Assembly: GCA_020137815.1 (NCBI GenBank)
Contig: CM035357.1
Location: 3,472,001 to 3,536,000 of the forward strand
Direction: 5' to 3'
DNA: 64,000 nt
DNA from: Hormiphora californensis
Taxonomy: Eukaryota; Animalia; Ctenophora
Shown piece after piece: positions 1-60,200 of the stretch (positions within the stretch are counted from its first letter, which is position 1; each line of letters opens with the position of its first letter). The notes under the pieces were generated by a model, which was not told the origin of the DNA, searched no databases, and saw only the letters and a list, made by a program, of their open reading frames with translations. A program made the position numbers and the translations under genes.

Positions 1-3000
1 AGAAGTACCAGACCCTAGAGGAAAACACCCCAATTCTCCCTGGACCCGGGACATGCTCCCTGACCCCTGAAGCCATCAGGACCGCAGTGGCTGTCACCAT
101 GGGAGGGTTCCTATTTGGTTATGATATTGGGGTAATGAGTGGAGCTCTGGTCAAGTTGTCTGAGGACACAGCCGGGGACTCAGCCTGGGGTCTAGATGAT
201 AACCCTTTTAGGTAGGTAGCATGGGGTCTAGATGATAACCCTTTTAGGTAGATAGCATGGGGTCTAGATGATAACCCTTTTAGGTAGGTAGCATGTGGTC
301 TAGATGATAACCCTTTTAGGTAGGTAGCATGGGGTCTAGATGATAACCCTTTTAGGTAGGTAGCATGGGGTCTAGATGATAACCCTTTTAGGTAGGTAGC
401 ATGGGGTCTAGATGATAACCCTTTTAGGTAGGTAGCATGGGGTCTAGATGATAACCCTTTTAGGTAGCTGATGTAGTTGATTGTCTAAAACTAAACTAAT
501 GTCTCCTTTTTATTACGGACTAGCGCACCCATTGGGTGCGCCTCAAGTAAGGGCTTTTTGATAACCCACCCGGCTTCGCCGGGTGGTTCTTTTCACCCCT
601 TTCAACGTCAATAACACGGTTGCCATGGCAACTGAATTAGTAACTATGGGGACTGGCATGTTAAAAGTCATTCGAAAATATTAACCAACTTCCACTGGAA
701 GTTCCAAAAGTGTGAATGACAGCTTTACAGCTTTGGGCACATAAAGTGTTTTATGAAGGAGCACTGTCGCGTAGAAACGCACTGAACGAACGGCCACTTC
801 GACGACGTTCATCTCCAAATTCCATTGTTTTCCATACTCATTCGTCCGATTTACAGTCTCCTAACTAGCTATAAGTTGCAACTAACTACTAAGTTGCAAC
901 TCGACATTTTCAGACAGGAAGTTGTAGTGTCTGCCACGATTATATTCGCTGCCATTGGATCCCTGCTCAGTGCACCGCTGAACAGGTCGTTAGGACGGAA
1001 ACCAGTCTTGTTGGGAGGGGCCCTGTTGTTTTCACTGTGCGGGGGTGTTATGGGTACCAGTTGGAACTGGTGGGTGCTAACATGCGGGAGAGCAATGGCA
1101 GGAATTGCAATAGGTCTCCTGTCGATGACAGCCCCACTTCTCATATCTGAACAGGTACTTAGTAACCATGGCAACCATACAGGTAACCATGGTAACACAC
1201 TTCTCATATCTGAAGACTGAACAGGTACTTAGTAACCATGGTATATCTGAACAGGTACTTTAGATTAGTGTAACCATGGTGGTAACCATGGTAACCATGG
1301 TAACCACTAACCATGGTAACATCTATATCTCCCTCCCACTTATAGATGGCTACAGAGTGGCGTGGTCCTGTCAACGTTGCAAATCAACTGATGATCACTG
1401 TAGGCATCCTGGTAGCTAGCATTGTAGCGGGAGGATTCTCTACAACTCCAGATGGGTAATATGTGCGATAAAGGAAAAAAGGCAAGGTCTACTCAGACCA
1501 AATATTTAGGAATGAAGTCTAAGTTCGAAAGTCTCGTCAAACGGATATAGATGTGTGTATCATACTGTTTCATATGGTAACCATGGTAACTCAGGTAACC
1601 ACAAGCCATGGTAACCATGGTAACCCAACTCTCTCTATTCCCTAGTTGGAGGTACATGTTGGGTTTATCTAGTGTCCCTGCTATTCTCATGGTGATGCTC
1701 GTGTGGTCCATCTCGGAGAGTGTTAGGTGGCTGGCACACAGTGGCAAACTGGGGGAGGCCAAGGCAGTGCTTCGGAAACTCAGGGATGACGATGTGGAGC
1801 TGGAGTGGGAGATGATCTTGGATGATATTGGGAACTGTAGTCAGGACGCAGGTTCGTGATATTGGGAACTGTAGTCAGGACGCAGGTTCGTGATATTGGG
1901 AACTGTAGTCAGGACGCAGGTTTGTGATATTGGGAACTGTAGTCAGGACGCAGGTTCGTGATATTGGAAACTGTAGTCAGGACGCAGGTTCGTGATATTG
2001 GGAACTGTAGTCAGGACGCAGGTTCGTGATATTGGGAACTGTAGTCAGGACGCAGGTTTGTGATATTGGGAACTGTAGTCAGGACGCAGGTTCGTGATAT
2101 TGGGAACTGTAGTCAGGACGCAGGTTCGTGATATTGGGAACTGTAGTCAGGACGCAGGTTCGTGATATTGGGAACTGTAGTCAGGACGCAGGTTCGTGAT
2201 ATTGGGAACTGTAGTCAGGACGCAGGTTTGTGATATTGGAAACTGTAGTCAGGACGCAGGTTCGTGATATTGGGAACTGTAGTCAGGACGCAGGTTCGTG
2301 ATATTGGGAACTGTAGTCAGGACGCAGGTTCGTGATATTGGGAACTGTAGTCAGGACGCAGGTTCGTGATATAATATTGGGAACTGTAGTCAGGACGCAG
2401 GTTCGTGATATTGGGAACTGTATTCAGGACGCAGGTTCCTGATATATTGGGAACTGTAGTCAGGACGCAGGTTCGTAATATTGGGAACTGTAGTCAGGAC
2501 GCAGGTTCGTGATATTGGGAACTGTAGTCAGGACGCAGGTTCGTGTATGTCCAGGTCAATGGAATGTAACAATTTAGTTTCGATTTAATTTCGTGAATTT
2601 ACATCACGTGTGTGGCAAGAATCACAGCCCCGTGTATGTGGCTGATGACTGTGTGTTAATGCTATCAAAACGTCATAAGAGCTCCGATCAATTCTTTTTA
2701 CGGATTCGTATGAAGCCTTATCTGACATATGTGTGTAAAGCTCTCTTACTAACACTACAATATCATGTAATACTCCGTATCATGTAACCTCGGTTTACCG
2801 CACAAAAACCCTTTCCCCCGAGTTGCCTAGCTAGACTGTTTCGCGCGTTAGAACATAACAACCCCCGAGGAGTCCGGTAAATCAAGGTTTTACTACCCTC
2901 GTTTAAAACTAAAAACAATTTCAGGGTTTTTAGACACGGTATCACGGATGATGGCCACAAGGGGTGTCAGAAGGGCCCTCGTACTTGGTGTATGCTTACA

Positions 3001-3772
3001 GGTATAAAAACTGTGTAATTTGTGAAATCCGGGTAACCTTGTTGGGGAACGGTTCAATTAAATCCCCTTTTATAATTCCACGATATGATCACCCAAAATT
3101 GACTAACATTGAGTAAATACTCTGACCACTCCGAAATGCGTTTCAGATGTTCCAACAAATAACTGGCATCAACTCAGTAATCTACTACGCGGACTCCATC
3201 ATCCTCTCCGCCCACCAAACCACCACCAGCCAGGCCATCTGGTTCGGGGCCATCGTGGCCTTTGTAAACTGTTCCGTGACAGTGATCACTCTCCTCACCA
3301 ACTTGATTGAAAGAGTGGGACGGAGAATGTTGATATTAGCTAGTCTCCTGGTGATGATAATTGGCCTAGTCCATTCTAATTGTTAGTTTTTATTACGAAG
3401 AGGAATATGACAAAACACTGGCATTGGTTGACCGTGCTTGGTTTATCCGTCTATGTGGCTGGGTTTGCTCCGGGTATGGGGCCCCTCCCGTGGGCTATTA
3501 ACAGCGAGATTTTCCCGATGTGGTGTAGAAGTGTAGCTGCTTCCATTACTACAACGACGAACTGGATTTTCAATAGTTTTGTGTCTCTCACATTTCTTTC
3601 AATTGCTGCTGGCCTAGGGACATATCATGCGTTTTTTATTTATTTAGTGGCGTGTTTTGGAGCGTTTATGTATTTCTTTGTGTTCCTTCCGGAAACACGG
3701 GGAATTCCCTTGGAGAGAATACCGAATTTGTTTGACGAGAGGATGGTTTTTGGTACTTGTTGTGGTCAGTGA
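1..3772 (+). CDS. SLC2A13: MFS sugar porter, H+/myo-inositol cotransporter-like; 5' end lies just before the window; exons ~1-211, 914-1153, 1345-1455, 1647-1851, ~2934-3001, 3147-3772
   Basis: Manual splicing at GT/AG sites gives GGFLFGYDIGVMSGAL, SLGRKPVL, WRYMLGLSSVPA, QQITGINSVIYY, PGMGPLPWAINSEIFP and LPETRG, which are sugar-porter/HMIT motifs. An apparent frameshift near 3370-3425 is probably a consensus error. Confidence 0.85.
186..466 (+). repeat. 8 x 36-bp tandem repeat of exon-1 end plus 5' splice donor
   Basis: Unit tggggtctagatgataacccttttag|gtaggtagca; the first unit is the coding exon end (WGLDDNPFR). Confidence 0.95.
519..590 (-). mobile_element. Possible Helitron-like terminus (two GC hairpins next to CTAG)
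   Basis: Hairpins gcgcaccca-t-tgggtgcgc and cacccggc-ttc-gccgggtg adjacent to actag. Confidence 0.3.
1824..2545 (+). repeat. ~21 x 34-bp tandem repeat of exon-4 end plus donor
   Basis: Unit gatattgggaactgtagtcaggacgcag|gttcgt; the first unit encodes DIGNCSQDA. Confidence 0.95.
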
Positions 3773-3854
3773 TAAATTAAAACCGCTTTGTGTGTTATCT
3801 GTTTTTAGTGAATGATATTAAATCTGAATTAGTAAATAATAGTCAGTATCCGTC

Positions 3855-4211
3855 TCACAAATTACAAAGAGCAGTTCCAATCACAATACAAATGGTTCCG
3901 GCCCAACCTCTGGCACCAATACGTCCCTCCCCAACTAAAGACCCGACCAAAGTCGTAAAGAGAAGTGTCAGACTGTTTACAATTGGTACAGCGTGTCCGA
4001 GTTCCGTTGAGCCGAGTAACAAGTAAAATAAAACCGAGCCGAGTTGATTGCCGACTACCGAACACAAATACGCTGGTCTGGTGAGAAGAAATATGATTTT
4101 GGATTTGGTATCCGTACACTTTTCCAGTCCTGCGCTTGTCACTTTTATCAGAGGGTTGGTGGAGCCCCATACGAAGGCCACGAAAATCATTTTAAATACA
4201 TCACTGATCAT
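3855..4211 (-). CDS. TMEM234: Transmembrane protein 234 (small DMT/EamA-like), intronless
   Basis: VWGSTNPLIK, NQLGSVLFYLLL and AVPIVNSLTLLFT motifs. Confidence 0.88.
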   Translation of the reverse strand: MISDVFKMIFVAFVWGSTNPLIKVTSAGLEKCTDTKSKIIFLLTRPAYLCSVVGNQLGSVLFYLLLGSTELGHAVPIVNSLTLLFTTLVGSLVGEGRIGARGWAGTICIVIGTALCNL

Positions 4212-4241
4212 ATTGGTAACCTGATGTGGCTGAAAAGTATA

Positions 4242-4863: not shown

Positions 4864-7800
4864 TCAAGGTTCAGAACAGACGAACTCAAGGATCCTCTGC
4901 CGGAAGCGGGTTTGAGCGGCCACCTCACATTTACAGACCTTCCTTCCAAGCTGAAGAACGGATCCCAGGTGGTACTTCCTCTGTTCGCCTGGAGAAATAG
5001 AATGTTGGAAATACAGTAAATACAACCCTCCAACAACTTATCTTTAAGGGTATAAACTAATTAGTCAATTATTAAGTTAGTTAATTAACTAATTAAGTAC
5101 TCAATTATCTAATTAATCAGCTAGACGTACCTTCAAGGGGACATCCCTCAATATTCTTGTTCCTCACATTACACTCCCTATCAGTGCACGTCATGGTCCC
5201 ATCATTACACGTGCACAAATTACACTCCACCTGCTTCTGGGTGCCGTGGGGCAGCACTTGGGTATCCATCTGAGGGGGAGGGGGAGGGGAGATTAGAGGG
5301 GGCAACACTTGGGTGTCCATCTGAGGGGGAGGGGGAGGGGAGATTAGAGGGGGCAACACTTGGGTATCCATCTGAGGGGGAGGGGAGATTAGAGGGGGCA
5401 ACACTTGGGTATCCATCTGAGGGGGAGGGGAGATTAGAGGGGGCAACACTTGGGTATCCATCTGAGGGGGAGGGGGGGGGGGTTAGGAGAGCCGAGAGGG
5501 GGTCAGGGAGGGGCAGCACTTGGGTGTTCATCTGAGGGGGAGGGGGAGGGGAGATTAGAGGGGGCAACACTTGGGTATCCATCTGAGGGGGAGGGGAGAT
5601 TAGAGGGGGCAACACTTGGGTATCCATCTGAGGGGGAGGGGAGATTAGAGGGGGCAACACTTGGGTATCCATCTGAGGGGGAGGGGGAGGGGGTTAGGAG
5701 AGCCGAGAGGGGGTCAGGGAGGGGCAGCACTTGGGTGTTCATCTGAGGGGGAGGGGGAGGGGAGATTAGAGGGGGCAACACTTGGGTGTCCATCTGAGGG
5801 GGAGGGGAGATTAGAGGGGGCAGCACTTGGGTATCCATCTGAGGGGGAGGGGGAGGGGGTTAGGAGAGCCGAGAGGGGGTCAGGGAGGGGCAGCACTTGG
5901 GTGTCCATCTGAGGGGGAGGGGAGATTAGAGGGGGCAGCACTTGGGTATCCATCTGAGGGGGAGGGGGAGGGGGTTAGGAGAGCCGAGAGGGGGTCAGGG
6001 AGGGGCAGCACTTGGGTGTTCATCTGAGGGGGAGGGGGAGGGGAGATTAGAGGGGGCAACACTTGGGTATCCATCTGAGGGGGAGGGGAGATTAGAGGGG
6101 GCAACACTTGGGTGTCCATCTGAGGGGGAGGGGGAGGGGAGATTAGAGGGGGCAACACTTGGGTATCCATCTGAGGGGGAGGGGGAGGGGAGATTAGAGG
6201 GGGCAGCACTTGGGTATCCATCTGAGGGGGAGGGGAGATTAGAGGGGGCAACACTTGGGTATCCATCTGAGGGGGAGGGGAGATTAGAGGGGGCAACACT
6301 TGGGTGTCCATCTGAGGGGGAGGGGAGATTAGAGGGGCAGCACTTGGGTATCCATCTGAGGGGGAGGGGGAGGGGAGATTAGAGGGGGCAACACTTGGGT
6401 GTCCATCTGAGGGGGAGGGGGAGGGGAGATTAGATGGGGGCAACACTTGGGTGTCCATCTGAGGGGAGGGGGAGGGGAGATTAGAGGGGGCAACACTTGG
6501 GTGTCCATCTGAGGGGGGAGGAATTGGGGTTCAGGAATAGCGTTTGGAGACAGACGGTGACCCACGCCCTCACGGGGGAGGGCTAACGTTGACCAACTTG
6601 GGGGGGGGGGGGGACTTCCCAATTTACACATACCTGGAAGAAACACTCTCGTTTTGGTTCTACACACTGGTTCTTGGTGCACGTCACCTTGCCTGCTCGC
6701 AGACAGATACACATGTTACAGTCCACCTGGGGGAGAGAGTTGGTGTGTTGATGATAACGGTGAGATGTAGGAGAGACTGATTGAGTTGGTTGATAGTTGA
6801 GTTTCTCGATGGGTTTTCCATGACATGTTTCTCCTTAAGTCACAGTGAGATATGGCATGGGAAAAATTTGAGAAATATAAAGTGGTGATCCTGGCTTGGG
6901 CTAGCTTTTGAGGTAAACTAATAACATGAACTTACCGTGAATCGGTTAAAGAGTTCGTAACTTTTCCCGTCATACAGACAGCCGTTAGTTGGGACTCTCT
7001 CGGCACAGGTAGTTCCCTCACAGTTCACATCCCCTGTATCAGTACAGGTACATGTCTGAAATATGAGAAATATGAGAAACCATTGACATATTGATAACTA
7101 ACGATTAGTTTCCTCCAGTAGGAACATCTGTAAAGTAGGTAGAAACCCGAAACTAACTGCGGCACTCTGCCAAGCGTGCGCTAAAGGCCCGTTCTCACTC
7201 AGAACAGGTGTAAGAATCAAAAGGGTCGAGGCACCAGACAGGGATCACTCTAAGACTCGACAAGAATTGAGTCCCATTACAGTCGGACCCCGATTTACCG
7301 GGATGCTCGTGGAAAAGGGTTTTCCCGGTAAATCGGGGTCTGACAGTAACTGTATTTACCTGGCAGTCATTGCTAAACTGGAATCCAACAGGGATGGTTC
7401 TGCCGTTATAGTCACATCCACTAGTACACCCTGCCCGGTTACACTGAATACCACCCGTTCCTGTAGAGATATAACTGCTTTGTAATCACCCTCTTATATA
7501 TCTTTGTTTTGATGTTTGGCTCAATTTGATTTAGTTGCCATGAACAAGATGATCAATCACCGAGTGATACTTCTAGTAGATCACTGATAGTGAGGAACAT
7601 AAATGATATGAGACTAACCTAGACAAGTACAGGTCTGGCAGCCCATTTTAAATTCATCACCAGCATTGTAAATAGTTCCATCGTACCACTTGCACTGAAC
7701 TGAAGAGAAACGGGAACCGAGGTTTAGGATAGGACAATCAAAATTAGCTGAATCAATGGGTCGCTTGAACGGAGGGTCGAGAGGTAATTTCATTCAGGTG

Positions 7801-8733: not shown

Positions 8734-8865
8734 CTGGAGGTGGAATTAGTTAATCAATTAATTAGTTAATTAATTAATTAGTTAATTAATAGGTAGTCAT
8801 ACATACACACATGTATATGTGTGACTACCAATTAATTAACTAATTAACTAGTTAACTAATATATA

Positions 8866-19209: not shown

Positions 19210-22200
19210 ATGTACAATGAAACAGAGCCAGACCCTAGAGGAAAACACGCCTTCTCCCTGGAACCCGGGACATGCTCCCCTGACCCCTGAAGCCATCAGG
19301 ACCGCAAGTGGCTGTCACTCATGGGAGGGATCCTATTTGGTTATGATATGGGGTACTGATGGAGCTCTGGTCAAGTTGTCTGAGGACACACCGGGACATC
19401 CAGCCTGGGGTCGAAATAACCCTTTTAGAGGGTAGGTCCATGGGGTCTAATTATACCCTTTTAGGAGATAGCATGTGGTCTTAGATGATACACCTTTTAG
19501 GTAGGTAGCATGTGGTCCTAGATGTCACCCTTTTAGGTAGGTCTCATGGGGTCTAATGATAAACCCCTTTTAGGTAGGTACACTGGGGTCTAGATTATAC
19601 CCTTTTAGTAGGTAGGCATGTGTCTCGGATGATAACTTTTAGGTAGTGTATCATGGGGCTAGATGAACCCTTTTAGAGTAGCTGAGTAGTTGATTGTCCT
19701 AAAAACTAAACTAATGTCTCCTTTTTATTACGGACTATAGCGCACCCATTGGGTTGTCGGCCTCAAGTAAGGGCTTTTTGGGGGGGGGGGGGGATAACCC
19801 AACACCCTGCTTCGCCGGTGTGGTTCTTTTCACCCCTTTCACCGTCAATTAACACGGTTGCCATGGCAACGAAATTGTAACTATGGGGACTGGCCTGTTA
19901 AAAGTCCGTTCGAAAATATTAACCAACTTCCACTGGAAGTTCAAAAGTGTGAATGACACTTTCCAGCTTTGGGCACATAAGTGTTTATAAGGAGCCTTCT
20001 CGTAGAAACAGCACTGAACAACGGCCACTTCGCGACGTTCATCTCCAAATTCCATTGTTTTCCAACTCACTTCATTCAGTCTCCCTAACTAGCTATAAGT
20101 TGCAACTAACTACTAAGTTGCAACTCGACATTTTCAGACAGGAATTGTAGTTCTGCCACGATTATATTCGCTGCCATTGGTCCCTGCTCAGTGCACCCTG
20201 AACAGGTCGTTAGGACGCAAACCAGTCTTGTTTGGGAGGGCCCTGTTGTTCCACTGTGCGGGGTTTTTATGGGACCAGTTGAACTGGTGGGTGCTAACAG
20301 CGGGAGAGCATGGCAGGAATTGCATAGGTCTCCTGTCATGACAGCCCCACTTCTCATATCTGAACAGGTACTTTAGCTAAGTCATGGTATAAGATCTATT
20401 GTAACAGATTACGTACTTTAGTTAGACCGAACCATGTAACCATGGTGTAACCATGGTAACATCTATATCTCCCTCCCACTTATAGATGGCTACAGAGTGG
20501 CGTGGTCCTGTCAACGTTGCAAATCAACTGATGATCACTGTAGGCATCCTGGTAGCAGCATTGTAGCGGGAGGATTCTCACAACTCCAGATGTGTAATAT
20601 GTGCGATAAAGGAAAAAAAGGCAAGGTCTACTCAGACCCAATTTTAGGAATGAATCTAAGTTCGAAAGTCTCGTCAAACGGATATAGATGTGTGTGTATC
20701 ATACTGTTTCATATGGTAACCATGGTACTCAGGTAACCACAATGGTACCATGGTAACCCCATCGGTAACCAAACTCTCTCTATTTCCCTATTTGGAGGTA
20801 CAGTTGTGGGTTTAATCTGAGTGTCCCTGCTATTCTCAGGTGATGCTCAGTGTGGTCTCTGGAATGTAGGTGGCTGGCACACAGGTGGCAACCTGGGGAA
20901 GGCCAAGGCAAGTGCTTCGGAAACTCAGGATACTATGTGGAGCTGGAGTGGAATGAAAAAAGATCTTGGGTGTATATTGGGGAACTGTATGTCAGGACGC
21001 AGGTTCGTGATATTGGGGACACTGTAGTCAGGACGCAGGTTCGTGATATTGGGAACTGTCAGTGCGATGGACTGCTTGTGTTGTGAGTATGTGGGAACTG
21101 TAGTCAGGACGCCGTTCGGATATTGGAAACTGTAGTCAGGACGCAGGTTCGTGAGATTGGGAACTGTAGTCAGGACGCAGGTTCGTGATATTGGGAAACT
21201 GTAGTCAGGACGCAGGTTTGGTGATTTGTGAACTGTAGTCGGACGCAGTTCGTGAATGGAACTGTATCAGGACTCAGGTCGTGATATTGGGAACTGTAGT
21301 CAGGACGCAGGTTCGTGATATTGGGAACTGTAGTCAGGACGCAGGTTCGTGATATTGGACCGTTATCAGGACGCAGGTTTGTTGATATTGGAAACTGTAG
21401 TCAGGACGCAGGTTCGTGATATTGGGAACTGTAGTCAGGACGCAGGTTCGTGATATGGGAACTGTAGTCAGGACGCAGGTTCTTGATATTGGAAACTGTA
21501 GTCGGACGCAGGTCGTGTATTATGGGAACGTAGTCAGGACGCAGTTCGTGATTTGGGAACTGTATTCAGACGCAGGTTCTGATATATTGGGACTGTAGTC
21601 AGGACGCAGGTTCGTAAGTATTGGGAACTGTAGTCAGGGACGCAGGTTCGTGATATTGGGAATTGTAGTCAGGACGCAGGTTTCGTGTATGTCCAGTGTC
21701 AATGGAATGTAACATTTAGTTTCGATTTAATTTCGTGAATTACATCACGTGTGTGGGCAAGAATCACAGCCCCGTGTATGTGGCTGATGACTGTGTGTTA
21801 ATGCTATCAAAACGTCATAAAAGCTCGCTCAATTCTTTTACGGATTCGTATGAAGCCTTATCTGACATATGTGTGATAAAGCTCTCTTACTACCACTAAA
21901 TATCATGTAATACTCCGTATCAGTAACCTCGGTTTACGCACAAAACCCTTTCCCCCGATGCCTAGCTAGACTGTTTCGCGCGTTCGTCGGTTAGAACATA
22001 ACAACCCCCGAGGAGTCCGGTAAATCAAGTTTTACTACTTAACACTCTCGTTTAAAATAAAACAATTTCAGGGTTTAGACACTTATCACGGATGATGGCC
22101 ACAAGGGGTGTCAGAAGGGCCCTCGTACTTGGGTTGCTTACAGGTATAAAAACTGTAATTTGTGAAATCGGGTAACCTTGTTGGGAACGGTTCAATATAA

Positions 22201-22892
22201 ATCCCCTTTTATAATTCCACGATATGATCACCCAAAATTGACTAACATTGAGTAAATACTCTGACCACTCCGAAATGCGTTTCAGATGTTCCAACAAATA
22301 ACTGGCATCAACTCATTAATCTACTACGTACGGGACTCCATCACCTCTCCGCCCACCAAACCACACCAGCCAGGCCATCGTGTTCGGGCCTGTGGCCTTT
22401 GTAAACGTGTTCGTGACAGTAATCACTCTCCTCACCAACTTGATTGAAAGAGTGGGACGAGAAATGTTGATATTAGCTAGTCTCCTGGTGATGATAATTG
22501 GCCTTCCATTCTAATTGAGTTTTTATTACGAAGAGGAATATGACAAAACACTGGCTGGTTGACCGTGCTTGGTTTTCCGTCTATGTGGCTGGGTTTTGCT
22601 CCGGGTATGGGCCCCTCCCTGGGCTTAACAGCGAGATTTTCCCGATGTGGTGTAGAAGTGTAGCTGCTTCCATTACTACAAACAACAACGGGATTTTCAA
22701 TAGTTTTGTGTCTCTCACATTTCTTTCAATTGCTGCTGGCCTAGGGACATATCATGCGTTTTTTATTTATTTAGGGGCGTGTTTTGGAGCGTTTATGTAT
22801 TTCTTTGTGTTCTTCCGGAACACGGGGAATCCCTTGGAGAGAATACCGAATTGTTTGACGAGAGATGGTTTTTGGTATTTGTGGTCAGTGAT
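19210..22892 (+). pseudogene. SLC2A13: Second, indel-rich copy of the SLC2A13-like gene (probable haplotig)
   Basis: Colinear with 1-3772 including both splice-site arrays; dense 1-bp indels break the frames. Confidence 0.8.
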
Positions 22893-22974
22893 AAATTAAA
22901 ACCTTTGTGTGTTTAATCTGTCTTTAGTGAATGATTATTAAAATCTGAATTATAAATAATAGTCAGTATCCTTC

Positions 22975-23318
22975 TCACAAATTACAAAGAGCAGTTCCAA
23001 TCACAATACAAAGGTCCGGCCCAACCTCTGGCCCAATACGTCCCTCCCAACTAAAGACCCGACCAGTCGTAAAGAGAAGTGTCAACTGTTTACAATTGGT
23101 ACAGCGTGTCCGAGTTCCGTTGACCGAGTAACAAGTAAAAAAAACCGAGCCGAGTTGATTGCCACTACCGAACACAATACGCTGGTCTGGTGAGAAGAAA
23201 TATGATTTTGGATTTGGTATCCGTACACTTTTCCATTCCTGCGCTTCACTTTTATCAGAGGGTTGGTGGAACCCCATACGAAGGCCACGAAAATCATTTT
23301 AAATACATCACTGATCAT
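22975..23318 (-). pseudogene. TMEM234: Second, frameshifted copy of TMEM234 (probable haplotig)
   Basis: Same N- and C-termini as 3855-4211, split over frames. Confidence 0.8.
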
Positions 23319-23801
23319 ATTGGTAACCTAATGTGACTGAAAAGTATAGTTAGATGATATATAGTCTATGATAGGTAGACGCCAGTCAAAATGGCCAGAA
23401 ACGACGGAAAATCCAGAAAAAAACCGCACGCGCAAATCTAAAAAAGGGCCCAAATGTTTGAGTTTTAGAATTATATATTCCAACGCCGCGCACATAATTT
23501 TCGAGTTGCGCGGCTGCACGTTAGCAGCGCCAATTGAAAGATTGCGCCTCCACAGATCGAGGCAAAATCAACCTGAAACCGGGAATGTAAGCATAAAAAA
23601 CAGTCTTATGAATTAATCGAGATACAAAATAACAAATAGCAAACCATGTGTGTCAAAATAAATCTCAGTATCAAAATCAAATTCTCAGCAAAGAAAAACC
23701 AACCGATCGTCTAGCTCACTGTCTCTTATCAAATATCGATTAATTGTAGACTGTAGTCAACAACAACAGTCAATGTCACATCATGAGCGTTTTTCAGATG
23801 A

Positions 23802-26800
23802 TCAAGGTTCAGAACAGACGAACTCAAGGATCCTCTGCGGAAGCGGGTTTGAGCGGCCACCTCACATTTACAGACCTTCCTTCCAAGCTGAAGAACGGAT
23901 CCCAGTGGTACCTTCCTCTGTTCGCCTGGAGAAATAGAAGTTGGAAATACTACTGTTGAAATACTGATTTATAAACTACAGTCAACACTAATTGAATTCA
24001 ATAACTAATTAACTAATTAGTTAATGTACCTTCAAGGGGGCATCCCTCAATATTCTTGTTCCTCACATTACACTCCCATCAGTCACGTCATGGTCCATCT
24101 TACACGTGCACAAATTACACTCCACCTGCTTCTGGGTGCCGTGGGGCAGCACTTGGGTATCCATCTGAGGGGGGGGGGAGGAATTGGGGTTCAGGAATAG
24201 CGTTTGGAGACAGACGGTGACCCACGCCCTCACGGGGAGGGCTAACGTGACCAACTTGGGGGGGGGGGTGAGACTTCCCAATCTACACATACCTGGAGAA
24301 ACACTCTCGTTTTGGTTCTACACCTGGTTCTTGGTGCACTCACCTTGCCTGTCGCGCAGACATGATACACTTACAGTCAACCTGGGGGGAGAGTTGGTGT
24401 GTTGGTGATACCGGTGAGATGTAGAGAGACTGCATCGAGTTGGTTGATAGTTGAGTTTCTCGATGGTTTTTCCATGTCGTGTTTCTCTTTAAGTCACATG
24501 AGATATGGCATGGTGAAAAATTTGAGAAATATAGAGTGGTATCCTGGCTTGGGCTAGCATTTGAGGTAAACTAATGACATGAACTTACCGTGAATCGTTA
24601 AAGAGTTCGTAAACTTTCCCGTCATAACAGACAGACCGTTAGTTGGGACTCTCTCGCACAGTAGTTTCCCTCACAGTTCACACCCCTGTATCATACAGTA
24701 CAGGTCTGAAATATAGAAATATAGAAAACCATTGACATATTGAATACTACACGATTAGTTTCCTCCAGTAGGAACATCTGTAAGTAGTGTAAAACCCGAA
24801 CAACTGCGCACTCTGCCAATTGCGTGCGCTAAAGGCCGTTCTCACTCAGACAGGTTGTAAGAATCAAAAGGGTCGAGGCACAGACAGGGATCAACCTAAA
24901 CTCGACAGAATGAGTCCCATTACGTCGGACCCCGATTTTACCGGGATGCTCGTGGAAAAGGGTTTTCCCGGTAAATCGGGGTCTGACGTAACTGTATTTA
25001 CCTGGCGTCATTGCTAAATGGAATCCAACAGGGTGGTTCTGCCGTTATAGTCACACTCCACTAGTACACACCCTGTGCCGGTTACACTGAATACCACCCG
25101 TTCCTGTAGAGATATAACTGCTTTGTAATCACCCTCTTATATCTTTGTTTTGATGTTGTGCTCAATTTGATTTAGTTGCCATGAACAAGATGATCAATCA
25201 CCGAGTGATACTTCTAGTAGATCACTGATAGTGAGGAACATAAATGATATGAGACTAACCTAGACAAGTACAGGTCTGGCAGCCCATTTTAAATTCATCA
25301 CCAGCATTGTAAATAGTTCCCATCGACAACCTTCGCCTGAACTGAGGGGAACCGAGGTTTAGAATACTAGGTCAATCAAAATATCCTGAATCAATGGGTC
25401 GCTCGCACGGAGAGTCGAGAGGTAATTTCATTCAGGTGGTAGAACGCACTCTATAATAATAACAATAAATCTAAACCAACAGACAGCACCAACAACAGTA
25501 AAAGCTCACACCCAGTGGTGCTCGATTGAAAATCTTAACTCTATCGAAATATTTTGAACGGCAAAATTTGAAGAAAATAGCTCATCTGAACGGCAAATTC
25601 ACAACAACCAAAATCAAACCCATTTGTGACTAAGTGTGGTCTAATGACAGTTTAGAACCGTGATAGGCGGTAGATCGGTAAGATGAGAGTTATCGATTTT
25701 ATAGGTCTAGTGAGACTTAGTCAAATTTGACAAAATGGCTTATTTGATGGTTAAAATTCAAAACAACCAAAACCAAACCCCATTTGTGACTAATGGTGGT
25801 CTAATGAACGTTTAGAACCGTAGATAGGCGGTAGATCGGTAAAGATAGAGTCAATGATTTCATAGGCTAGTGAGTATTAGTAACACGAATAAGTAAAGCC
25901 AGCCGTTAAAAATCATCAATCTACATCTCCGATGTGGCCAGTGGCTAGGCGCCTTACTTACCACACGCAGGTCCCGTGTTCAAATCCCGCATCATAATTT
26001 CACAATTTTACTTGAAATTTTCCAACGCAACGCTTTTTTTGAACGGCCAATTAAATTTGAACGTTAAGCAACTCGAGCTTGTAACCCGCTCCGTCGATTA
26101 GCTTGAGCTCTCTCGTTATTTGGTGCCGTCACACTGTACAAGCTTTTACAATATACATACCTGCAGGCTCAACCTCCTCCACTTCTTCGATGACTTCATC
26201 AACCTCACATTTCTTGTTGCTGCACCGCACCCTCCCACTGGACATACACACGCACCGGTTACAATCCACTTGAAGATGGAACCAAGGGCAACCGTTCCAC
26301 GACCTTCAACCTCACACCCAGTAGTAGTGGTTTCTAGGGATATGATACATTATTGAGGTGATGAATTGCAGACATCCAATTACAACTCAAATGTAACCCA
26401 TCTTTTACGAAATAACCCTCCAAAGCGCTGACAAGGGAGGGTAAACCAAACCCCCCCCCCCTAACCCCTGGCACTTACCACATTTTCTGCTGGTGCAAAA
26501 TGGTTACCGTCCTTCAAACAGGTGCAAATGTTACAGTCTTTCTTCCACTGTTGGAATTGCTGGTACACATTTCCAGCGCCGTCAGTACACTGCTTAGCGG
26601 CTGTGGAGAGGGGCTGTTAAAGGGGAAGAGGGAGAGGGGGCGTTAGATAGGGAGAAAGAGAGAGGGTGTTAGATGGAAGGAAGCTGTTTGCAAAAAGGAG
26701 TGAATGGTAAATTTTTATAAGAGCATTGATTTAAATAATTATCATGACAAATGAATTAATTAGTTATCATCTGGTTATATCATCTGCTAATTACTATATC

Positions 26801-29800
26801 GCTAATACTTTGCTATTATAATATCTAATTACCAGCAGATATCCGTGGTACATGTGACACGTGTTTTGGAGCAATAACACGTGTTACACTCATCAGGGAA
26901 CCTCTCTCCATCCTCATAGACATTTCCCTTGAAGTCACACACCTGGAGGTGGAATTAATTAATTAGCTAATTAGTTAACTAGTTAATTAGTTAATTAATA
27001 GGTAGTCATACATATGTGTGACTACCAATTAATTAACTAATTAACTAGTTAACTAATATATATATATATGTACTCAGCTCTCTTATTTCATGTTTCTTTC
27101 ACCAAAACTACTAAACAATGGGTACCTGTTTCGAAGCGGTGAGGGGCCAATCAGGTATCTGAACGGGATCCTTCTTGAATTGGGCAGCAGTCATGGCCAT
27201 GTTTGCAGATGTAGGGGTGGGAGCCTTATCTGGGGGTGGGTGAGATTAATGTATATTGTAGGTGTTGTATCTAGAAATAGAGGTAACAGGAGAGGGGGAA
27301 CTGCTAGAGACATATTTTCAGTTACAGACTTGAATTGAGCAGTGAAGGGTTATTTCTTACCAACGAAACTGAGAGTGGCAATCTCTTTCACCGCACCGTA
27401 CTTGTTACTCGCGAGGCAGGCAAACCTGAGAGGGGGAGAGTATCGGGAGTTATTCCATAATATAGCTAAATAACTAGCTACTCATTAAATAATTAGCTAC
27501 TAATTACATAACTAGCTACTCATTATACCTGCCGGTATCCTCCTCTCCGTTGATGATCACTACCTCCTCTGCTACCACATTGTGGATTCCTTGTTCAGCG
27601 TTATTGTGAACTGGTGGGAAGGTGTTAGATCCAGACTGCAGCCTCACAATTATAACCTGGCAGGGGAGGATAATTAATTATCATCATCCTTGATTAATTA
27701 TTGGAAATTAGGGGGTATATGATAATGTCAAATCAATGATTTCAATTTCGGCTAAAGTATGCGATTATTATCTTACATCAGGTTTTGGGGCACCCGTCAC
27801 CACACATCGCATCTTTTGGGCGTACTTTTGTCCAAGAGCCAGGCTCTCAATACCCAATCGAACCAGAGGTGGCATTCGGACTGAAATGGTGAGTTTTATG
27901 AAGGAGAGCAGTTCACTAGAGAACAGAAAAAGGGCGAAATACAGACGGACAGACATCTATTAGATTTCTGTCTCTCTTTGATGACTGTCTCTCATGTGAC
28001 TTACTGTAACCGTCAGCAGCAACGGAGGGATTCATACTGGTATCACTACTTGGAATGACCTTGAAATTACCGGAACTTTTTGCAACGCCATTAACATTCC
28101 ACGCATAGCAAGTAATCTGAAAAATTAGCAGATAATAATTAACAATTTAGTACATGTATTAGTTTTAAACAATAAATCAATTATTAGTATCAACTAATTA
28201 AACACTAATTAAACACTGCACCTGTGAGGGAGTGATGCCTGCAGAAATCCTGAAAGTCTTGGTGGACGTTTTGAGTCCCAGTTGGCCCTTTTTAGGGGAC
28301 ATGGCCAGGTCGGGTTGGAATTGAGTAGCATCTGTTATTTTCATCTCGGGAACGGGCTCTCCGATAGCGGAACAGGTGATATCAAACTGAGAGAGGATTT
28401 CAATTTTCAGCTGTATGAAATGTGGATAAACATTTTCTCTTAATTAACAAATTAATTAGTTAATTAACTCACCGTCCCTCCCTTGATTGACCAATCAATT
28501 AGTTAATTAACTCACCGTCCCTCCCTCTGGGAACTGTTGCCCAGAGATTCCCTGGACAATAACAGGACTGTATCTCCGTCCAGGACACTCGTGTTTACAG
28601 ACACCATGAAAGAGGAAGGGTCTCTCTGGGGGACATTTGCACATATCCGCACACCTAGTGAGGGGAGAGAGGGATCAGATGAGTGAATGAGTGATAACGA
28701 AGTATCTCTAATTATTTCAAATTAATTCTAATTATCTCTAATTACCTTCTGTTACAGGTAGTGGTAGGTTCCTCGCACGTCCTATCACAACCATTGGCAC
28801 CCTCTTCACTACATCGGGTCCATCGGAAACCCAGGTCCCGGTAACTTGGGGGACACTCTGCAAGGGAATGGGACAGTTAGGGCGGGGATTGTGGGGGGAC
28901 GGTAACTTGGGGGACACTCTGTGGGGGAAAGGAACAGTTAGCTAGGTCGAGGGGATGTAAGGGTGACTGCGTCACCAAGGTGTACCCGTGTTTTGACCTT
29001 ACCTTCTCGCAATCGATATTGTGTTTCATGGGCTGTTCCTGTAGTCCCATCAATCACTGAAAAAGGTTTTATGAAGGAGTAACTCAAACAATGTTTGGTT
29101 TTATGAAGGAGCAACTCAAACAATGTTTGGTTTTACGAAGGAGCAACTCCCACAATGATTGGTTTTATGAAGGAGCACACTTACTTTCACAGCTGGTACA
29201 ATCCAAAGCACCGCCCGCGCTGTAACATGTACAACTTTGACAGCCAATATCAATAGATTCACCGACAGGAACCAGACTTCCCTTGTAATCACATCCTGTA
29301 GATCAAAAAGTTAGCAGAATTGATTATAGGTTTTGTCAAATAATCAGATATCACAAAACCACTGCAGATTAAATTTGATATCACAAAATATATTTTTACC
29401 CTGAGTGTTGCCACTGGTACATGCCGGATCCGCTTTACAGTTCAAGAACCCGTAAGTGCACGTGCACAGCTCACATGCCTCACTAGCGGATTGGCCATTA
29501 GCCAGCATGGATCCAGAGGGGAGGGTACATGCCCTGGCTACTGCCACGCACAATGTCGTCTTTTCCTGAACAGGGATCAATTGGTTAAATTTGTTGGGAT
29601 CTTGGTCACGAAGTCACCCCTATTTTTGCATATATAATGTGAGCTTGCGCGGAGGGGTAATTTCATTACCAAGTTGGGGTTAATTTCATAGCTGTGTGTA
29701 CCTCGGAGGTGAGCATTGATTTCCATTTCCCAGTAGCGGCCACCATGTAGGCATAACCTCTCTGTGGGTGGTTAACATCCCAGTTAGCATAGGATGAATC

Positions 29801-35427: not shown

Positions 35428-35492
<65 letters not shown>

Positions 35493-37933: not shown

Positions 37934-40900
37934 TTAGATGACTCCCTTCTGTTTTCCAACCTCAATGAAGGCATCCACGCATCTGTCAATCTGTTCAATT
38001 GTATGGGCTCCCGACATCTGAACTCTAATCCGCGCTAAACCTGGGAAGAATGTGTGGTAAAATAGTTTGGGTATCAAATATATTGGAAAATGGGTTTTGG
38101 ATGACCAGTCATCGTTCTGTGACTTTCTGACTTTTTTCAGGGGGCCCCTTTAGCAGCTGAAGTTCTCAACATCATCTAGAATTTACCTTTGGGTACAACA
38201 GGGAAACTAAACCCAATTTTAACCTACCTTTGGGTACAACAGGGAAACTAAACCCAATCACATATATTCCTTTCTGGAGGAGTTCGTCAGCGATTGAAGA
38301 AGCAAGGGCAGCGTCATAGAGCATGACGGGTACAATGGGATGCTCCGTCCCAGATAGAGTAAAACCAGCCTCCGTCATTCGAGATCTGGGGGGGGGGGGG
38401 GGGGGGGGGGGTGTTTGAGGGGTAGGGGGTATGTGTTATGTGTAGTCAGGGGGGGGTAGATATGTATAGTTGGATGAGGCATGGTTGCCACTTGCCACGG
38501 GGGTGAACTTCACACCCGCCGTGAACCCCTTTCAGCGACCCTACGGGAGCCAATCACTTTGTGATACTAGCACCGTTCACGCGTATAGGAAGCACGTGAA
38601 GAGAGAAATGAAATAATAAATCTGTCCAGTAGCCAGTAGATAGATTATAAGCAAGCATTTAGCAAGCAAAAAGAGTGTACAACAGGTTTTGTTTCACTGT
38701 GCTTGTGTGCAGTTCATCGTTCCCTCTGTGTTATAGCTCCAGGCTCGGAGTGTTTTGTTTCTGGGGCCCAGTTTCTGCTTTGATCTGGTACCCATCAGTA
38801 CTTATACTGCTCGGACTAGCCAGTAGCCACTAGCCGTACAAGACAGTCCGATAAAGTCAGGGGTAGTTGAAGCAAGCTAGCAGTAGCTCTCTTTACAGAG
38901 TGCGTGCAAACTCTGCGTAAGTACTTTCTCCACGCCGAATACTACACATACTTTTATCTTGTGCCATTGATTGAGTTTCTGAGCACAATTCACCTATATT
39001 TATAGGACAGTATCCTGGATATATGAGAGGTGGATATCTACTAATTATCGCCCTGATAGTATTGTTATTACTGGTAGATGACAGTGCCGCAGCATCCCGC
39101 ACCAGATCAACATCTACTTCTAGGAGAAGAGTAGTTTCTAAATCAACATTTGGGAGAATATCGAATTCCAACACCAATGATTCCGACCCACCATTGGTTA
39201 GTTGGTTATTAGCATTTTCTGGTATGGCCGGGGCCGGGGTAGTGTGTATCTGGTCTTACATATATTGTTGTCAAAAAAGGTGTCGAGATTTTTGTTGCAA
39301 ATCAAAGGAGGGTCCTCCCCCTTCTGTGGTCGGGAACTCACCCGATGGGGTGGGTGAGATGAATTTGGAGGATTTAGAGGACCAGTCACCGCCCACATAC
39401 GGATCATTATTCCAGGATGGACACCATGATAGTGAGCTACCCGGATATGAAGATGAGGTACCCGGATATGAAGATGAGGTACCCAGATATGGTCATTTTT
39501 TTTTTAACTTGTGCAACTACCAAATTTTTTCAAATGATCATAGCAAAATAGCTGTGGCCACTGGAAATTTACTCAGCACCTCAAAAAAATCGAGAAATAT
39601 TAAAAGTTCAATTTAGTGAAAGAACGAAGTCTCTAGCATACTCCAGTGAGGTGCTATAGCATTTCTACGCCGTGAGGTGCTATCGTGAGGTGCCCCCGAT
39701 TTGTAGAAATACCGTTTGATCAAAAATCTCCAAACTTTCAGAAATGGTGGGGATATTTCTCACTCATCAGATGAGGTGAAAACCATGGAAAAATTTACTC
39801 ATTTGGTGAGGTGCAAGCCGATTTTAGAGCTAAAAGTTTACTCACTAGGGGTCAAATGAGCAAATAAAGAATTGAAACTTGGCATAAAGCAAGATTAGAC
39901 AATTTCCCTCCTGATTTACCGAAAATTTGCTCTAAAAATTACTCAGCGAGTGAGGTGCAGACCCTCAAAAAATGACATATTTTACCTACTTCTCCAGTGC
40001 ACCTCACAGGTTGAGCAATGACCTTGGAATCGATTAGGTAGTGTTTGGGGATGTCATATGAGCAAATTAAGGCCACTTTTAGAACTATATACTCACTGAG
40101 TGAGGTGCAATTAGCGTTTGAAGAAAATACAGTTTTTTGGGTGCACCTCACTCATTGAGCAAAATTTTTTGAACTTTTTTGGTACAAATGATGGTTTTGA
40201 GTCTACTGCAAGTATCTAGCTAGGAAAAGTCGTGAAACGTGAGGTGCTACGGGCTTAAAAGTAGCTGTAAGTATACAGTGTAACTTTAAACACCGGTTGC
40301 ACCTCATAGATTGAGTAAGTTTGCTTACATATTTTAAAGGTGTTTATATTGGACATTTTTCAGCATATTTTCGAAAATTTTAGGAAAAAATATTAAAATT
40401 TGACGGAATGGCACACGCTTTTGCAAACATGGTCACCGGCACCTCACGAGATGAGTTTTTAGTTTATTTTGCCTGTAAATCTATTCCCTATACACTTTTA
40501 CACATAATATTCGTTGGAAAATAATATTTTTTGACAAAAACTATTATAAAAGTCGAAAAAACTGAACTTATGTCATTTTCGGAAAAAATTTTGCACAAGT
40601 TAAAAAAAAAAAAGACCATATGAAGATTGTGAGGGATTTGATGGGAACAATGGCGGGGGTGATTTTGGAGGGGGTGGTGATGGAGGGGGTGGTGATGGAG
40701 GAGGGGGTGACTAATGTGGGGCTAAGGTGAGACATTTTAAAAGGGTCAAGTTCAATATGTATTAAGTTATATTATTACGAACCAATTTAATAGTGATTGT
40801 GAAATTTTAATTTAATTAGTGTGTCTCTCCCGCATACCTGAAGTGCATGGTATTCCTAGCCACCAGCTCAGGTAACTCACTGCTCTCAGTCAGCAGTTCA

Positions 40901-43258: not shown

Positions 43259-56696
<13,438 letters not shown>

Positions 56697-57254
56697 TAGA
56701 CCAATATTAGTTGCAGTTAGACCATATTGTTACACACACACACACCCTGTCCTCTACCATGTAACCTATTCATCAGCCCGGCTACAAATATAATAGAAGA
56801 GTGTTATTGAGAGTGCTCTGCAAATAATCTAGAATTGGAGGCAAGCATAATACTGAAATGTATTGGGAATCATAAAAACGCGTAAAGTCAAGCCAAGTCA
56901 GGTGTGTAAAATAATAACATTGGTTTCTCGCTCCCCCTCACCTCATTCTACCTATCTTCTCTTCACTTCTCTCCCTCTCTCACATTCTCTCTCCCTCTCT
57001 CTCTCTCGCACTCGCATTCTCTCCTCCTCTCCAGAAATTGTACCCCCTGTGTATCAGATTTCCCCACTCTATCTATAAGCTTGTGTTACCGATTCTAAAA
57101 AAGGAGGAGACAGGAAAAGAGAACCAAACACTTCTGTCTGACTCCATAAAAACTATGAAACTCAGTCTCTGGCCAGCACACACTCTCTCTCTGCAACAAA
57201 TATCATGGAACCCAGCTCCACAGCTCGACCCTGCCAGGAGTACCCTCCACAGCC

Positions 57255-60200
57255 TCATGAGTACCCTTTGTGAGGGTCGTATATAACATCATTCCTTGTG
57301 TGTTTCCTGGGTGGAGGGGGTGGCAGATCTCCGCCAAGACCGGGTATCCCCGAACTGGGCCGTTTCCGGGAGGGAGGTGGAGGTGGGGCGTCATCCTCAA
57401 CGTCAATGTCAGAGTTTTCATCCGAGTTGGTCACGTCCACCTGGTGGTGGAAGAGGGTGAGAGGGGTGAGAGAGGGGGGAAGGTGTTAGCTTCTGGTAGG
57501 TTATGCTAGCTGACGCTATACTTGTGCACCTATTATATGAAGAAGAGGGTGAGAAGGGGTGAGGGGGCACCCCGTGCCTGAACAAAGTTTAACCTCGGAT
57601 GAAAAAACATTGGAGGAAGAGGGTGAGAGGAGGGGGGAGGGGTTGGTGGAGGGTGTTAGCTACTGGCAGGGTGGAGGAAAGATAACTATTTCTCTAAGTT
57701 CTCTCACCTCATCTATCTACCGGCTACCATTACTACATTTTCTCTAAGTTCAAAATTCTCTCACCTCATCTTCATAAAGATCGGCCTTCTCCTCGCTGAG
57801 TCGTGTCATGATCCCCATAACTTCTTCTATGTCATCTGCACTGGTCGGACTCTGGACGGGAGAGGGTGAGATAATTTTAAAGAGAATTTTAGAGAGAATG
57901 CTAGAGAGAACTTAAAATACGACAAATGTGAGCAGTAGACCGCAAAGTTATTCGTTACAATACCTCAATAAGATGTCCCCACCAGGGCAGAGCGACTTGT
58001 TCAAACAGCTCATCCTTTAGGGCATCCTTGGTGAGAGCGATGGGGAATTTCAGCCTCTTACTGCCAAGACAAAGTAGTGCTCCGGCAATAACATCGGGTG
58101 GGTAGTGGAGGGAGAGGGGAGTACAGAAGGATTCGTTACAATACGTCCATGCCATCTGGAAAATGGTTAGTTGTTATGTTCTAACCCTCCGGGCGGGGCA
58201 CGGGAAACAGGGTCGAGCAAGGCAAAAGGTTAGGTGATTTTTTGGTGGTTTGAAAGAAATTGTTCAATTATAGTTTATTTGCCGTGATTAATGTCTACAG
58301 CCCAACTGTTTATCCTGAAAACACTCAGTAATAAACATATGAGCGTCACTCGATTCAAAAAAGCAAGAATTGTAACACGTTGTTTCATGGTTTATTTCTA
58401 CCTGTACAAGATCGTTTTTCCTTTGTTTCTCTCCCTTGAACTGTTTCACATATTTCACCAGATACATGTACGGGTGGACAATGTTGAAATCAAACTTGAT
58501 GGTCTGAAAACATTGAGGATAATTAGAAGTTGCAAAAAGTAGTCATCATAGCGCTGGAAAGCGCCCGAGGTTCAATTGCTATTCCTACCTAACATAGTCT
58601 AGGTTGCATCGGAAACTTCTCGACATGAAGGTTCTGGAACAGTTTAGACAGAATTCAAGTGTCGAATATCTGGCGTGTCTAGTCTCCACCAGACAACTGT
58701 CTAGACTCAATGTCTACTGTCTAGACTCAATGTCTACTATACCTGAAGGAGCATCTTCTCGTAAAGCAGCATCTCGTCAACGGGAGACAGTCCAAATCCC
58801 TTGAACTGATCAGAACTAAGGAGGTTCTTTGCCGTTCTGACGATATCTTTACTGAGTTTTGGCGTCTCCTCTACCTTGCCCGCGAGAAAGAAACATGCCG
58901 CTGCCATTACCCACCTGGAAATATTGGGGTTAGGGGGATCTTCTATCACAACAGAGATAAGAGTAGTGGAGAAAGAAAGAAACATTTGAAGGAGTGCTAA
59001 CTCATCGCAAATAATAATTCCAAATACCTGTTAAATTTGTCGAACGAATGGTACATGTAAAAGCGATGAAAAAACACGCATCCCGTTGCCATTGTATAGT
59101 GGGTCAGTTCCAGTGCTTTAACTGTCGCCTGGATGAACTTCGCACCTGGGAGATAATATTGGCGTTAGGGCAGGTCGGTAGAACTTCGACAGAATTTAGG
59201 GCAGGTCAATTTAGGGCAGGTCTGAATTTAGGGCAGGTCAATTTAGGGCAGGTCTGAATTTAGGGCAGGTCTGAATTTAGGGCAGGTCTGAATTTAGGGC
59301 AGGTCTGAATACTAAGCATGTGAATGTGATTCGGGGAAGCTTATTAGCGGTGTGAGACGATACGAGATATAATGGAACATGATTCGGGGAAGCCAATCAG
59401 GAGTGTTCGACGATATGAGACACGATTCGGTGAAGATTTCTATCACTTTCCATCCCTAGACCCTATCCCCCTCTCTTTTCGCTCCGTCTCTCTTTCAATT
59501 TCTCTTACTTTCTCTGAGGGAGAAAGAGAGATACCCTTAACTTTTTGACTGCTGGAAAAGCACGTAGAAATTGTAGATGTAGGCGGCTCTTTTTACCGAG
59601 AGAGAAAAGACAATGTTTAGCCATGCGAAATGCATGGATGATATCTTCTTGACCTCCTGACCACAAGTCCTCCACAACCGCCACCTACTTCCGATCCGGT
59701 TTCCCTAGCTAGATCATCGACCTGAACGAAACGACCGAGAGTTGCCTACATCTACCTGATGGGAAAGCGGAGGAGCTCAACAGTCTTTCTATCTCGACTC
59801 TCGGGTATCTCTCTTTCTCCATGTCTCTCTTCCTCCCTTCATAGAAAGTGAAAGAGAAAGTGAGAGAAAGGAAGAGAGAGCCCCTACCAATCATAGCTTG
59901 GTCGACATGCGCTAGACCAGGATCGAACCCGGAACCTAGTGCGTGAGAGGCGAGTGTACTAGCCACTACACCACCGGTATAACCAATAGCTTATATGTAT
60001 ATAGGGATGGAAACCCCATATCCATCGTCTAACACTCCTGATTGGCTTCCCTGAATCATGTTCCAGAGAGGGGGATAGGGTCTAGGGATGGAAAGCAATA
60101 GAAACCTTTACCGAATCGTGTCTCATATCGTCTAACACTCCTGATTGGCTTCCCCGAATCATGTTCCATATCTCGTATCGTCTCACACCGCTAATAAGCT

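What the first reader, a model, noticed from the sequence alone, without database searches (positions are those of the whole stretch)
186..57770. Splice junctions are themselves tandemly amplified across unrelated genes
Seen: at about 12 junctions in five genes the repeat unit is the splice site plus adjacent exon sequence, with extra copies lying in the intron. Donors: 186-466 (x8), 1136-1260 (x3), 1824-2545 (x21), 28462-28524 (x2), 38184-38258 (x2), 45167-45866 (x12), 55943-55995 (x3), 57689-57770 (x2). Acceptors: 5247-6520 (~x25), 28840-28921 (x2), 48851-49010 (x2), 54041-54150 (x3-4). The units share no sequence, so this is not a TE family. The largest minisatellites inside genes here are junction-anchored. 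Inference: either a junction-targeted duplication process (splicing- or R-loop-coupled, or RNA-templated repair), or genome-wide slippage filtered by selection because junction-spanning copies leave the exon intact. Either way the spliceosome must pick one of up to ~25 near-identical sites.
Basis: partly seen in the sequence, partly recalled or inferred. Interest (0 to 1): 0.85.

Follow-up and report, generated by a model that had tools for sequence, protein, structure and literature searches.

The report
Comb-jelly splice-junction "mirage" repeats
In five unrelated comb-jelly genes, about one exon edge in nine has been copied with its splice signal into the neighbouring intron, a repeat type already named "mirage" in lancelets; the spare signals are likely ignored during splicing, and the copies are crowded at exon edges more than chance predicts.

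Summary
55943-55995 is rejected: only 3 nt of exon plus a common motif. The window is from a ctenophore. The gene models stay open with the exon-proximal copy, and 66 of 70 intact decoy sites would give a premature stop or frameshift. Short-read contigs carry three of the small duplications. A second, noisy haplotype-like copy of the region carries two big arrays and lacks two other duplications. One acceptor has several length alleles. Junction-spanning duplications are about 2-3 times more frequent than geometry predicts, but a plausible 2x persistence bias removes part or all of that. Intron-only duplications also crowd intron ends (9 of 9 within 15 nt). This is the known 'mirage' class (amphioxus; human F7 intron 7 VNTR), and the scan has found it before in annelids, urchins and molluscs. 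My searches found no ctenophore case. No RNA was available, so copy choice is inferred. A splicing-coupled mutation bias is neither shown nor excluded.

The parts
182..467 (+). Donor mirage, sugar transporter; 36-nt unit x8 (about 30 nt exon + 6 nt intron); real donor after 211
   Evidence: 7 motif matches in the noisy copy vs 8 here
1135..1260 (+). Irregular donor triplication (patchwork of short local copies); real donor after 1154
   Evidence: absent from the noisy copy
1823..2545 (+). Donor mirage; 34-nt unit x21 (29 nt exon + about 5-7 nt intron); real donor after 1851
   Evidence: 20 motif matches in the noisy copy vs 21 here
5248..6517 (-). Acceptor mirage, pacifastin/VWC gene; 45/51/70-nt units x25, each with branch-point-like CTAAY, pyrimidine tract, AG and 22 nt exon; ORF-matching acceptor at 5269
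   Evidence: single acceptor in the noisy copy at about 24141-24190
28439..28526 (-). Donor duplication, 43-nt unit x2, 11 nt exon; real donor at 28515
   Evidence: decoy present in contigs of X1, X3 and X5
28839..28941 (-). Acceptor duplication x2, 61-nt offset, 19 nt exon; real acceptor at 28857; other alleles carry 25, 29 or 40 nt of exon
38184..38258 (-). Donor duplication x2 in GCAT-like gene, 41-nt offset, 31 nt exon; real donor at 38227
45167..45866 (-). Donor mirage in Fer-type kinase, 57-nt unit x12; real donor at 45826
   Evidence: junction colinear with homologues
48850..49011 (-). Acceptor duplication x2, 123-nt offset, 39 identical nt (22 exon + 17 intron); real acceptor at 48871
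54040..54150 (-). Acceptor mirage, 31-nt unit x3 plus a degenerate fourth copy; real acceptor at 54056
57689..57771 (-). Donor duplication x2 in cyclin-like gene, 57-nt offset, 7 nt exon (marginal); real donor at 57764
   Evidence: spanned without gaps by X1 contig 8
43644..43773 (-). Intron-only array, 43 nt x3, starting 5 nt from a donor (example of edge-crowded duplication without exon sequence)
29065..29177 (-). Intron-only array, 32 nt x3.5, ending about 7 nt from a junction
19228..27062 (+). Noisy, indel-rich second copy of 8-8865; likely an unpolished long-read haplotype; serves as a second allele

Best explanation
These are 'mirage' repeats: short local duplications across real exon-intron borders, some grown into long arrays, that likely persist because the copy next to the exon keeps the gene intact while the spare splice sites are skipped. 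Step 1 (shown): the units are copies of each gene's own junction and are unrelated to one another. Step 2 (inferred): they arise by ordinary slippage or microhomology-mediated repair, which is frequent in these introns; short shared words sit at several unit ends (2 nt at 1823/2545, 3 nt at 38227, a 13-nt palindrome-containing word at 45826). Step 3 (partly shown): selection removes duplications inside exons, and copies at exon edges last longer, because the exon-anchored copy cannot decay and (inferred) deletions near splice signals are costly. Step 4 (shown as polymorphism, mechanism inferred): unequal exchange or slippage expands, trims or removes arrays between haplotypes. Step 5 (inferred, untested): the spliceosome takes the first donor and the last acceptor, that is the shortest exon, and rare slips would mostly be removed by nonsense-mediated decay.
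For: Open models using the exon-proximal copy: kinase 886 aa, GCAT-like 405 aa, VWC gene parts 465 and 354 aa, cyclin-like 285 aa. The kinase model aligns with two full-length homologues of 59-60% identity (in the 264-aa query exon) with no repeat-sized insertion at the three repeat junctions. 66 of 70 GT/AG-intact decoys give a premature stop or frameshift (one search tested 71 offsets, including one copy that lost its GT). 0 of 7396 exon-interior positions are duplicated. Allelic variation: two duplications are absent from the second copy, and one acceptor shows exon-part lengths of 19, 25, 29 and 40 nt across two samples. The same anatomy, haplotype length differences and normal splicing are reported for amphioxus mirages (PMC3087553, passages; PMC3902484, passage). 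Exclusive use of the most upstream donor is shown for F7 IVS7 (PMC1557585, abstract and Discussion).
Against: The excess is not fully absorbed by the 2x persistence correction: for units of 30 nt or more, 10 of 12 span junctions against 4.8-6.4 expected (p 0.003-0.03). Intron-only duplications of 19 nt or more lie within 15 nt of a junction in 9 of 9 cases against 1.9-2.4 expected, which exon anchoring does not explain. The 2x factor is my assumption. Median intron length is 174 nt, where intron definition would be expected from general knowledge and would favour the wrong copies. The sugar-transporter model has a frameshift in its last exon and another near 180, read as sequence errors but not verified.
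Confidence: 0.62

Rival explanations
1. Duplications are generated preferentially at exon edges by a transcription- or splicing-coupled process (spliceosome pausing, R-loops, or breaks at the palindromic motifs that crowd intron ends), and selection only trims the result.
For: Residual enrichment for units of 30 nt or more. Intron-only duplications crowd intron ends: 9 of 9 within 15 nt for units of 19 nt or more; 13 of 17 within 20 nt for all non-TE events vs 4.5-5.6 expected. Several distinct alleles at one acceptor.
Against: One window and a hand-curated list of 34 events; distance thresholds were chosen after seeing the data; several intron-only events are low-complexity. Shielding from deletion near splice signals predicts the same crowding. 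The alleles at 28857 look like one old duplication trimmed by deletions. No exon-exon joined copies were seen, which RNA-templated repair would give. No consistent G-rich RNA strand: 6 of 7 donor units G>C, 3 of 4 acceptor units C>G (no background computed).
Confidence: 0.25
2. Some arrays are used: they tune expression through unproductive splicing, or the 5248-6517 array adds a variable proline-rich linker between pacifastin domains.
For: The four acceptors nearest the exon at 5269 (offsets 51, 102, 147, 192) keep the frame open, adding 17-64 aa. Decoys score as well as real sites on a matrix built from the window's 49 introns.
Against: That array is absent from the second copy of the region. 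The other 10 loci give only premature stops or frameshifts. The genes are unrelated and show no common regulatory logic.
Confidence: 0.09
3. The repeats are assembly artefacts from merging divergent haplotypes at conserved exon edges.
For: The assembly is imperfect: it has a false-looking 8-kb duplicate with raw-read-like indels and a gap at 12396-12495. Introns differ strongly between haplotypes.
Against: Short-read contigs match 28775-29043 (X1) and 28775-29064 (X3) with 0 differences across both acceptor copies. A second sample (X5) has its own duplicated alleles there. An X1 contig with 19 differences spans 57651-57996 without gaps. The noisy copy holds the 36- and 34-nt arrays with nearly the same copy number. 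Not checked in reads: 1135-1260, 5248-6517, 38184, 45167, 48850; 54040 was in the stretch laid but no listed contig bridges it.
Confidence: 0.04

Closest known systems
Amphioxus 'mirage' minisatellites (Adh3, globins BflGb6/BflGb9, troponin C, PGBD5); PMC3087553 and PMC3902484, passages read; the original Adh3 paper was not held
   Same: Tandem duplication of exon-intron boundaries, both 5' and 3'; units of tens of bases (10-160 bp reported; here 31-123 nt offsets); retained AG/GT; copy number differs between haplotypes.
   Different: Here a ctenophore; a per-junction rate is measured (11 of 98); up to 25 copies against 3-6 in the globin case; no RT-PCR or somatic-instability data here.
Human F7 intron 7 37-bp VNTR (PMC1557585; abstract and Discussion read)
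   Same: First unit spans the exon-intron boundary, followed by identical pseudo-donors; polymorphic; unit size like the 34-, 36- and 57-nt arrays here.
   Different: F7 has 5-9 donors and tested upstream-site choice; it covers donors only. The acceptor arrays here need the last copy, which 5'-to-3' scanning does not explain.
Rogers-type intron gain by duplication of an AG/GT site (as summarised in PMC3087553)
   Same: Duplicated segments often contain AG|GT and could seed new introns.
   Different: The repeats here flank existing introns; no new intron is shown. AG|GT is not enriched: 5 of 7 donor units end in AG vs 34 of 49 donors overall; 2 of 4 acceptor exons start with GT vs 15 of 49.

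Membership tests
Mirage minisatellites | Tandem or near-tandem copy spans a real exon-intron boundary | tested here: met
   11 of 98 junctions; junctions rest on ORF continuity and homology, not on RNA
Mirage minisatellites | Both donor and acceptor boundaries can be duplicated | tested here: met
   7 donors, 4 acceptors
Mirage minisatellites | Extra copies keep GT/AG signals | tested here: met
   70 decoys with intact GT or AG
Mirage minisatellites | Length instability between haplotypes | tested here: met
   two duplications absent in the second copy; several alleles at 28857
Mirage minisatellites | Normal splicing is not disturbed | not testable with these tools
   no RNA-level data obtained; only ORF logic
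Mirage minisatellites | Somatic instability (Adh3) | not testable with these tools
   needs single-molecule reads from tissues
Mirage minisatellites | Concerted evolution with end units left out | not tested
   no tree built; end copies at 211 (last) and 5269 (intron-side first) visibly differ
F7 IVS7-type donor VNTR | First monomer holds the authentic donor, identical pseudo-donors follow | tested here: met
   arrays at 211, 1851, 45826
F7 IVS7-type donor VNTR | Only the most upstream donor is used | not testable with these tools
   inferred from 53 of 53 tested offsets...: every donor decoy gives a premature stop or frameshift; no transcript seen
Transposable-element or satellite family | Units share sequence or recur elsewhere | tested here: not met
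   at most 7-8 nt shared between units; units hit only their own locus and the noisy duplicate, apart from the AT-rich intron motif in the 28515 unit and one hit near 52 kb for the 5269 unit
Rogers-type new intron | Duplicated AG/GT segment inside an exon is removed as a new intron | tested here: not met
   all 11 lie at the edge of introns with their own unique sequence; intron age itself was not tested

The most novel reading that the evidence does not exclude
Ctenophore genomes have a mutation process that duplicates DNA preferentially at exon edges (junction-spanning and junction-adjacent alike), touching about a fifth of introns, and an animal with short introns resolves up to 25 identical splice sites by picking the shortest exon, so exon-proximal choice would be ancient and testable genome-wide with thousands of natural, polymorphic splice-site competitions.
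Probability: 0.2. Interest if true: 0.7.

Novelty: new member of a known kind. Interest (0 to 1): 0.3.

Why it matters
As a structure it is known. The additions are the lineage (a ctenophore, with no case in my searches: and a word search of one ctenophore genome paper), the density (11 of 49 introns) and allelic presence/absence. The acceptor arrays are the useful part: the ORF needs the last of up to 25 equal acceptors, which first-come scanning does not predict, so allele-specific RNA data would directly test exon-proximal choice in a short-intron animal. If the crowding at exon edges proves mutational, it would link splicing to germline mutation and feed models of intron gain and sliding. 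In practice such repeats can mislead gene prediction.

Tried and rejected
No whole genome is held, so no genome-wide test was possible. No RNA holder listed; the one guessed-RNA run X16 laid 0 records on 53300-59180; neither says anything about expression. A metagenome scan with the kinase exon gave 51 pattern matches and no confirmed locus. Three 93-97% identical EukProt proteins (P0001, P0004, P0005) depart from my models at several junctions, skip exons and include intron-like stretches, so I read them as gene predictions and did not use them as evidence of splice choice; P0005 agrees with six consecutive exons of the VWC model (223 of 226 aa). Site 55943-55995 rejected (3 nt exon). Recursive or AG|GT re-splicing as the general rescue: no enrichment of AG|GT. 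In-frame tolerance as the general rescue: only 4 of 70 decoys are open. TE origin rejected. Two further genes at 12.5-17.4 kb and 34-37.5 kb could not be modelled and were dropped from all counts; duplications at 8744-8861 and 56222-56286 fall outside the 49 modelled introns and were also left out. Two papers cited by Ebner et al. (Adh3 mirages; Gao and Lynch) were not held. Supplements were not read.
Full report
Setting. The window is animal DNA with short introns. The kinase's long exon has three homologues in the protein collection: an EukProt entry at 97%, a Logan protein at 60% and Mnemiopsis leidyi at 59%, so the organism is a ctenophore. No whole genome is held. Self-comparison shows that 19228-27062 is a second copy of 8-8865 at about 85-92% identity. 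Its exons differ mostly by 1-2 nt indels, as in an unpolished long read, while its introns differ by real insertions and deletions. I treat it as a second haplotype (inference) and leave it out of all counts.

Gene models. I fixed exon borders by hand. Five genes result: a sugar transporter (+), a pacifastin/VWC-repeat gene (-, modelled in two parts), a GCAT-like aminotransferase, a Fer-type kinase and a cyclin-like gene (all -). Pfam supports exons of each, the cyclin only weakly. They hold 49 introns, median 174 nt. Using the exon-proximal copy at every repeat, the models read 886, 405, 465, 354 and 285 aa without internal stops. The transporter model has a frameshift in its last exon and one near position 180, read as sequence errors. 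The kinase model aligns with the two full-length homologues with no repeat-sized insertion at the repeat-bearing junctions 54056, 48871 and 45826.

Observation. A uniform scan finds a copy of the junction inside the adjacent intron at 11 of 98 junctions: donors 211 (x8), 1154 (x3), 1851 (x21), 28515, 38227, 45826 (x12), 57764; acceptors 5269 (x25), 28857, 48871, 54056 (x3). Units share at most 7-8 nt. The three longest arrays in genes are junction-anchored; the next two are inside a large inverted-repeat insertion.

Reality and variation. Short-read contigs of X1 and X3 (one sample, possibly the assembly's source) match across both acceptor copies at 28857 with no difference. The same runs and a second sample, X5, show other alleles that go back to 28833, 28829 or 28818, so the exon-derived part is 19, 25, 29 or 40 nt depending on allele. 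The decoy donor of 28515 is in both X1 haplotype contigs and in X5. An X1 contig with 19 differences spans the 57764 pair without gaps. The noisy copy has 7 vs 8 and 20 vs 21 motif matches for the 36- and 34-nt arrays, but lacks the 1135-1260 patchwork and has a single acceptor in place of the 25-copy array.

More than chance? Per position, 11.2% of junctions against 2.3-6.0% of intronic controls, 4.6% outside genes and 0 of 7396 exon-interior positions; p 0.007 against 4.8%, but 0.34 if junction copies stay recognisable twice as long. Intron-only, non-TE duplications also sit near junctions: 9 of 9 units of 19 nt or more within 15 nt (1.9-2.4 expected) and 13 of 17 of all sizes within 20 nt (4.5-5.6 expected) (thresholds chosen after looking, several events low-complexity). 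So the real pattern is crowding of duplications at exon edges, with or without exon sequence, at about 2-4 fold.

How it likely works. Local slippage or microhomology-mediated repair makes short duplications (short shared words at unit ends are visible; mechanism inferred). A related ctenophore has about 3.2% combined heterozygosity with raised indel rates in introns (PMC8527503, passages), and searches show whole intron segments replaced between alleles here. Selection removes exon-internal events. Edge copies last longer because one copy is held by selection and deletions near signals are costly (inferred). Arrays then expand, shrink or vanish between haplotypes. Decoys score like real sites on a matrix made from these same introns, so choice must be by position. 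66 of 70 intact decoys would break the protein; the four exceptions are the acceptors nearest 5269, which would add 17-64 proline-rich residues. First donor plus last acceptor equals the shortest exon, as exon definition would give (general knowledge). This step is untested. AG|GT is not enriched in the units, so re-splicing is not supported as a general rescue.

Comparison with the known. Earlier scan notes gave the name 'mirage', which I checked in print. Ebner et al. describe minisatellite-like tandem duplications of both intron-exon boundaries in amphioxus globins and Adh3, with retained AG/GT, haplotype length differences, normal splicing and unclear origin (PMC3087553, passages); PGBD5 and troponin C are further cases (PMC3902484, passage). 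Human F7 intron 7 has a 37-bp VNTR with 5-9 identical donors of which only the first is used (PMC1557585, abstract and Discussion). Four of the seven mirage features I listed were tested and met, two are not testable here and one was not tested. Searches for a ctenophore case found none (the word minisatellite is absent from PMC8527503); the library lacks most subscription papers. The scan index lists 70 findings with the words splice, junction, repeat and mirage in at least 7 genomes and none with 'ctenophore', and no notes on this genome.

Verdict. Real, modestly enriched and polymorphic; a new member of a known kind. Interest 0.3. The open points are whether the edge bias is mutational and which acceptor is used in the 25-copy array.

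Noticed in passing
window 19228-27062: Indel-rich second copy of 8-8865, probably an unpolished long-read haplotype left in the scaffold; it splits the VWC gene model into two parts.
   Followed up: partly
window 49267-53343: About 4-kb insertion with roughly 800-bp terminal inverted repeats (49267-50033 / 52521-53343), each holding a 16-nt array, inside a kinase intron; likely a non-autonomous DNA transposon.
   Followed up: no
window 59192-60380: About 1.2-kb element whose ends carry inverted 17-nt arrays, upstream of the modelled cyclin-like exons.
   Followed up: no
window 10084-12395: 461-bp satellite-like repeat running into the assembly gap at 12396-12495.
   Followed up: no
short introns, e.g. 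1160-1320, 1570-1625, 8744-8861, 53670-53750, 56210-56290: Intron ends are rich in runs of palindromic words (CCATGG/GGTAACC and TAATTA types); TAATTA occurs 114 times and CCATGG 39 times in the window. They may seed local duplications; positional enrichment was not tested.
   Followed up: partly
window 60930-61553 (-): Single-exon gene with RPA-interacting protein N and C domains.
   Followed up: partly
window 13540-13735: 38-41-nt repeat x5 inside an unmodelled minus-strand gene region; may be coding or junction-related.
   Followed up: no
window 4864-8733 and 27125-29838 (-): Large predicted extracellular protein with cysteine-rich pacifastin/VWC repeats and an Ig-like part; function not examined.
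   Followed up: partly
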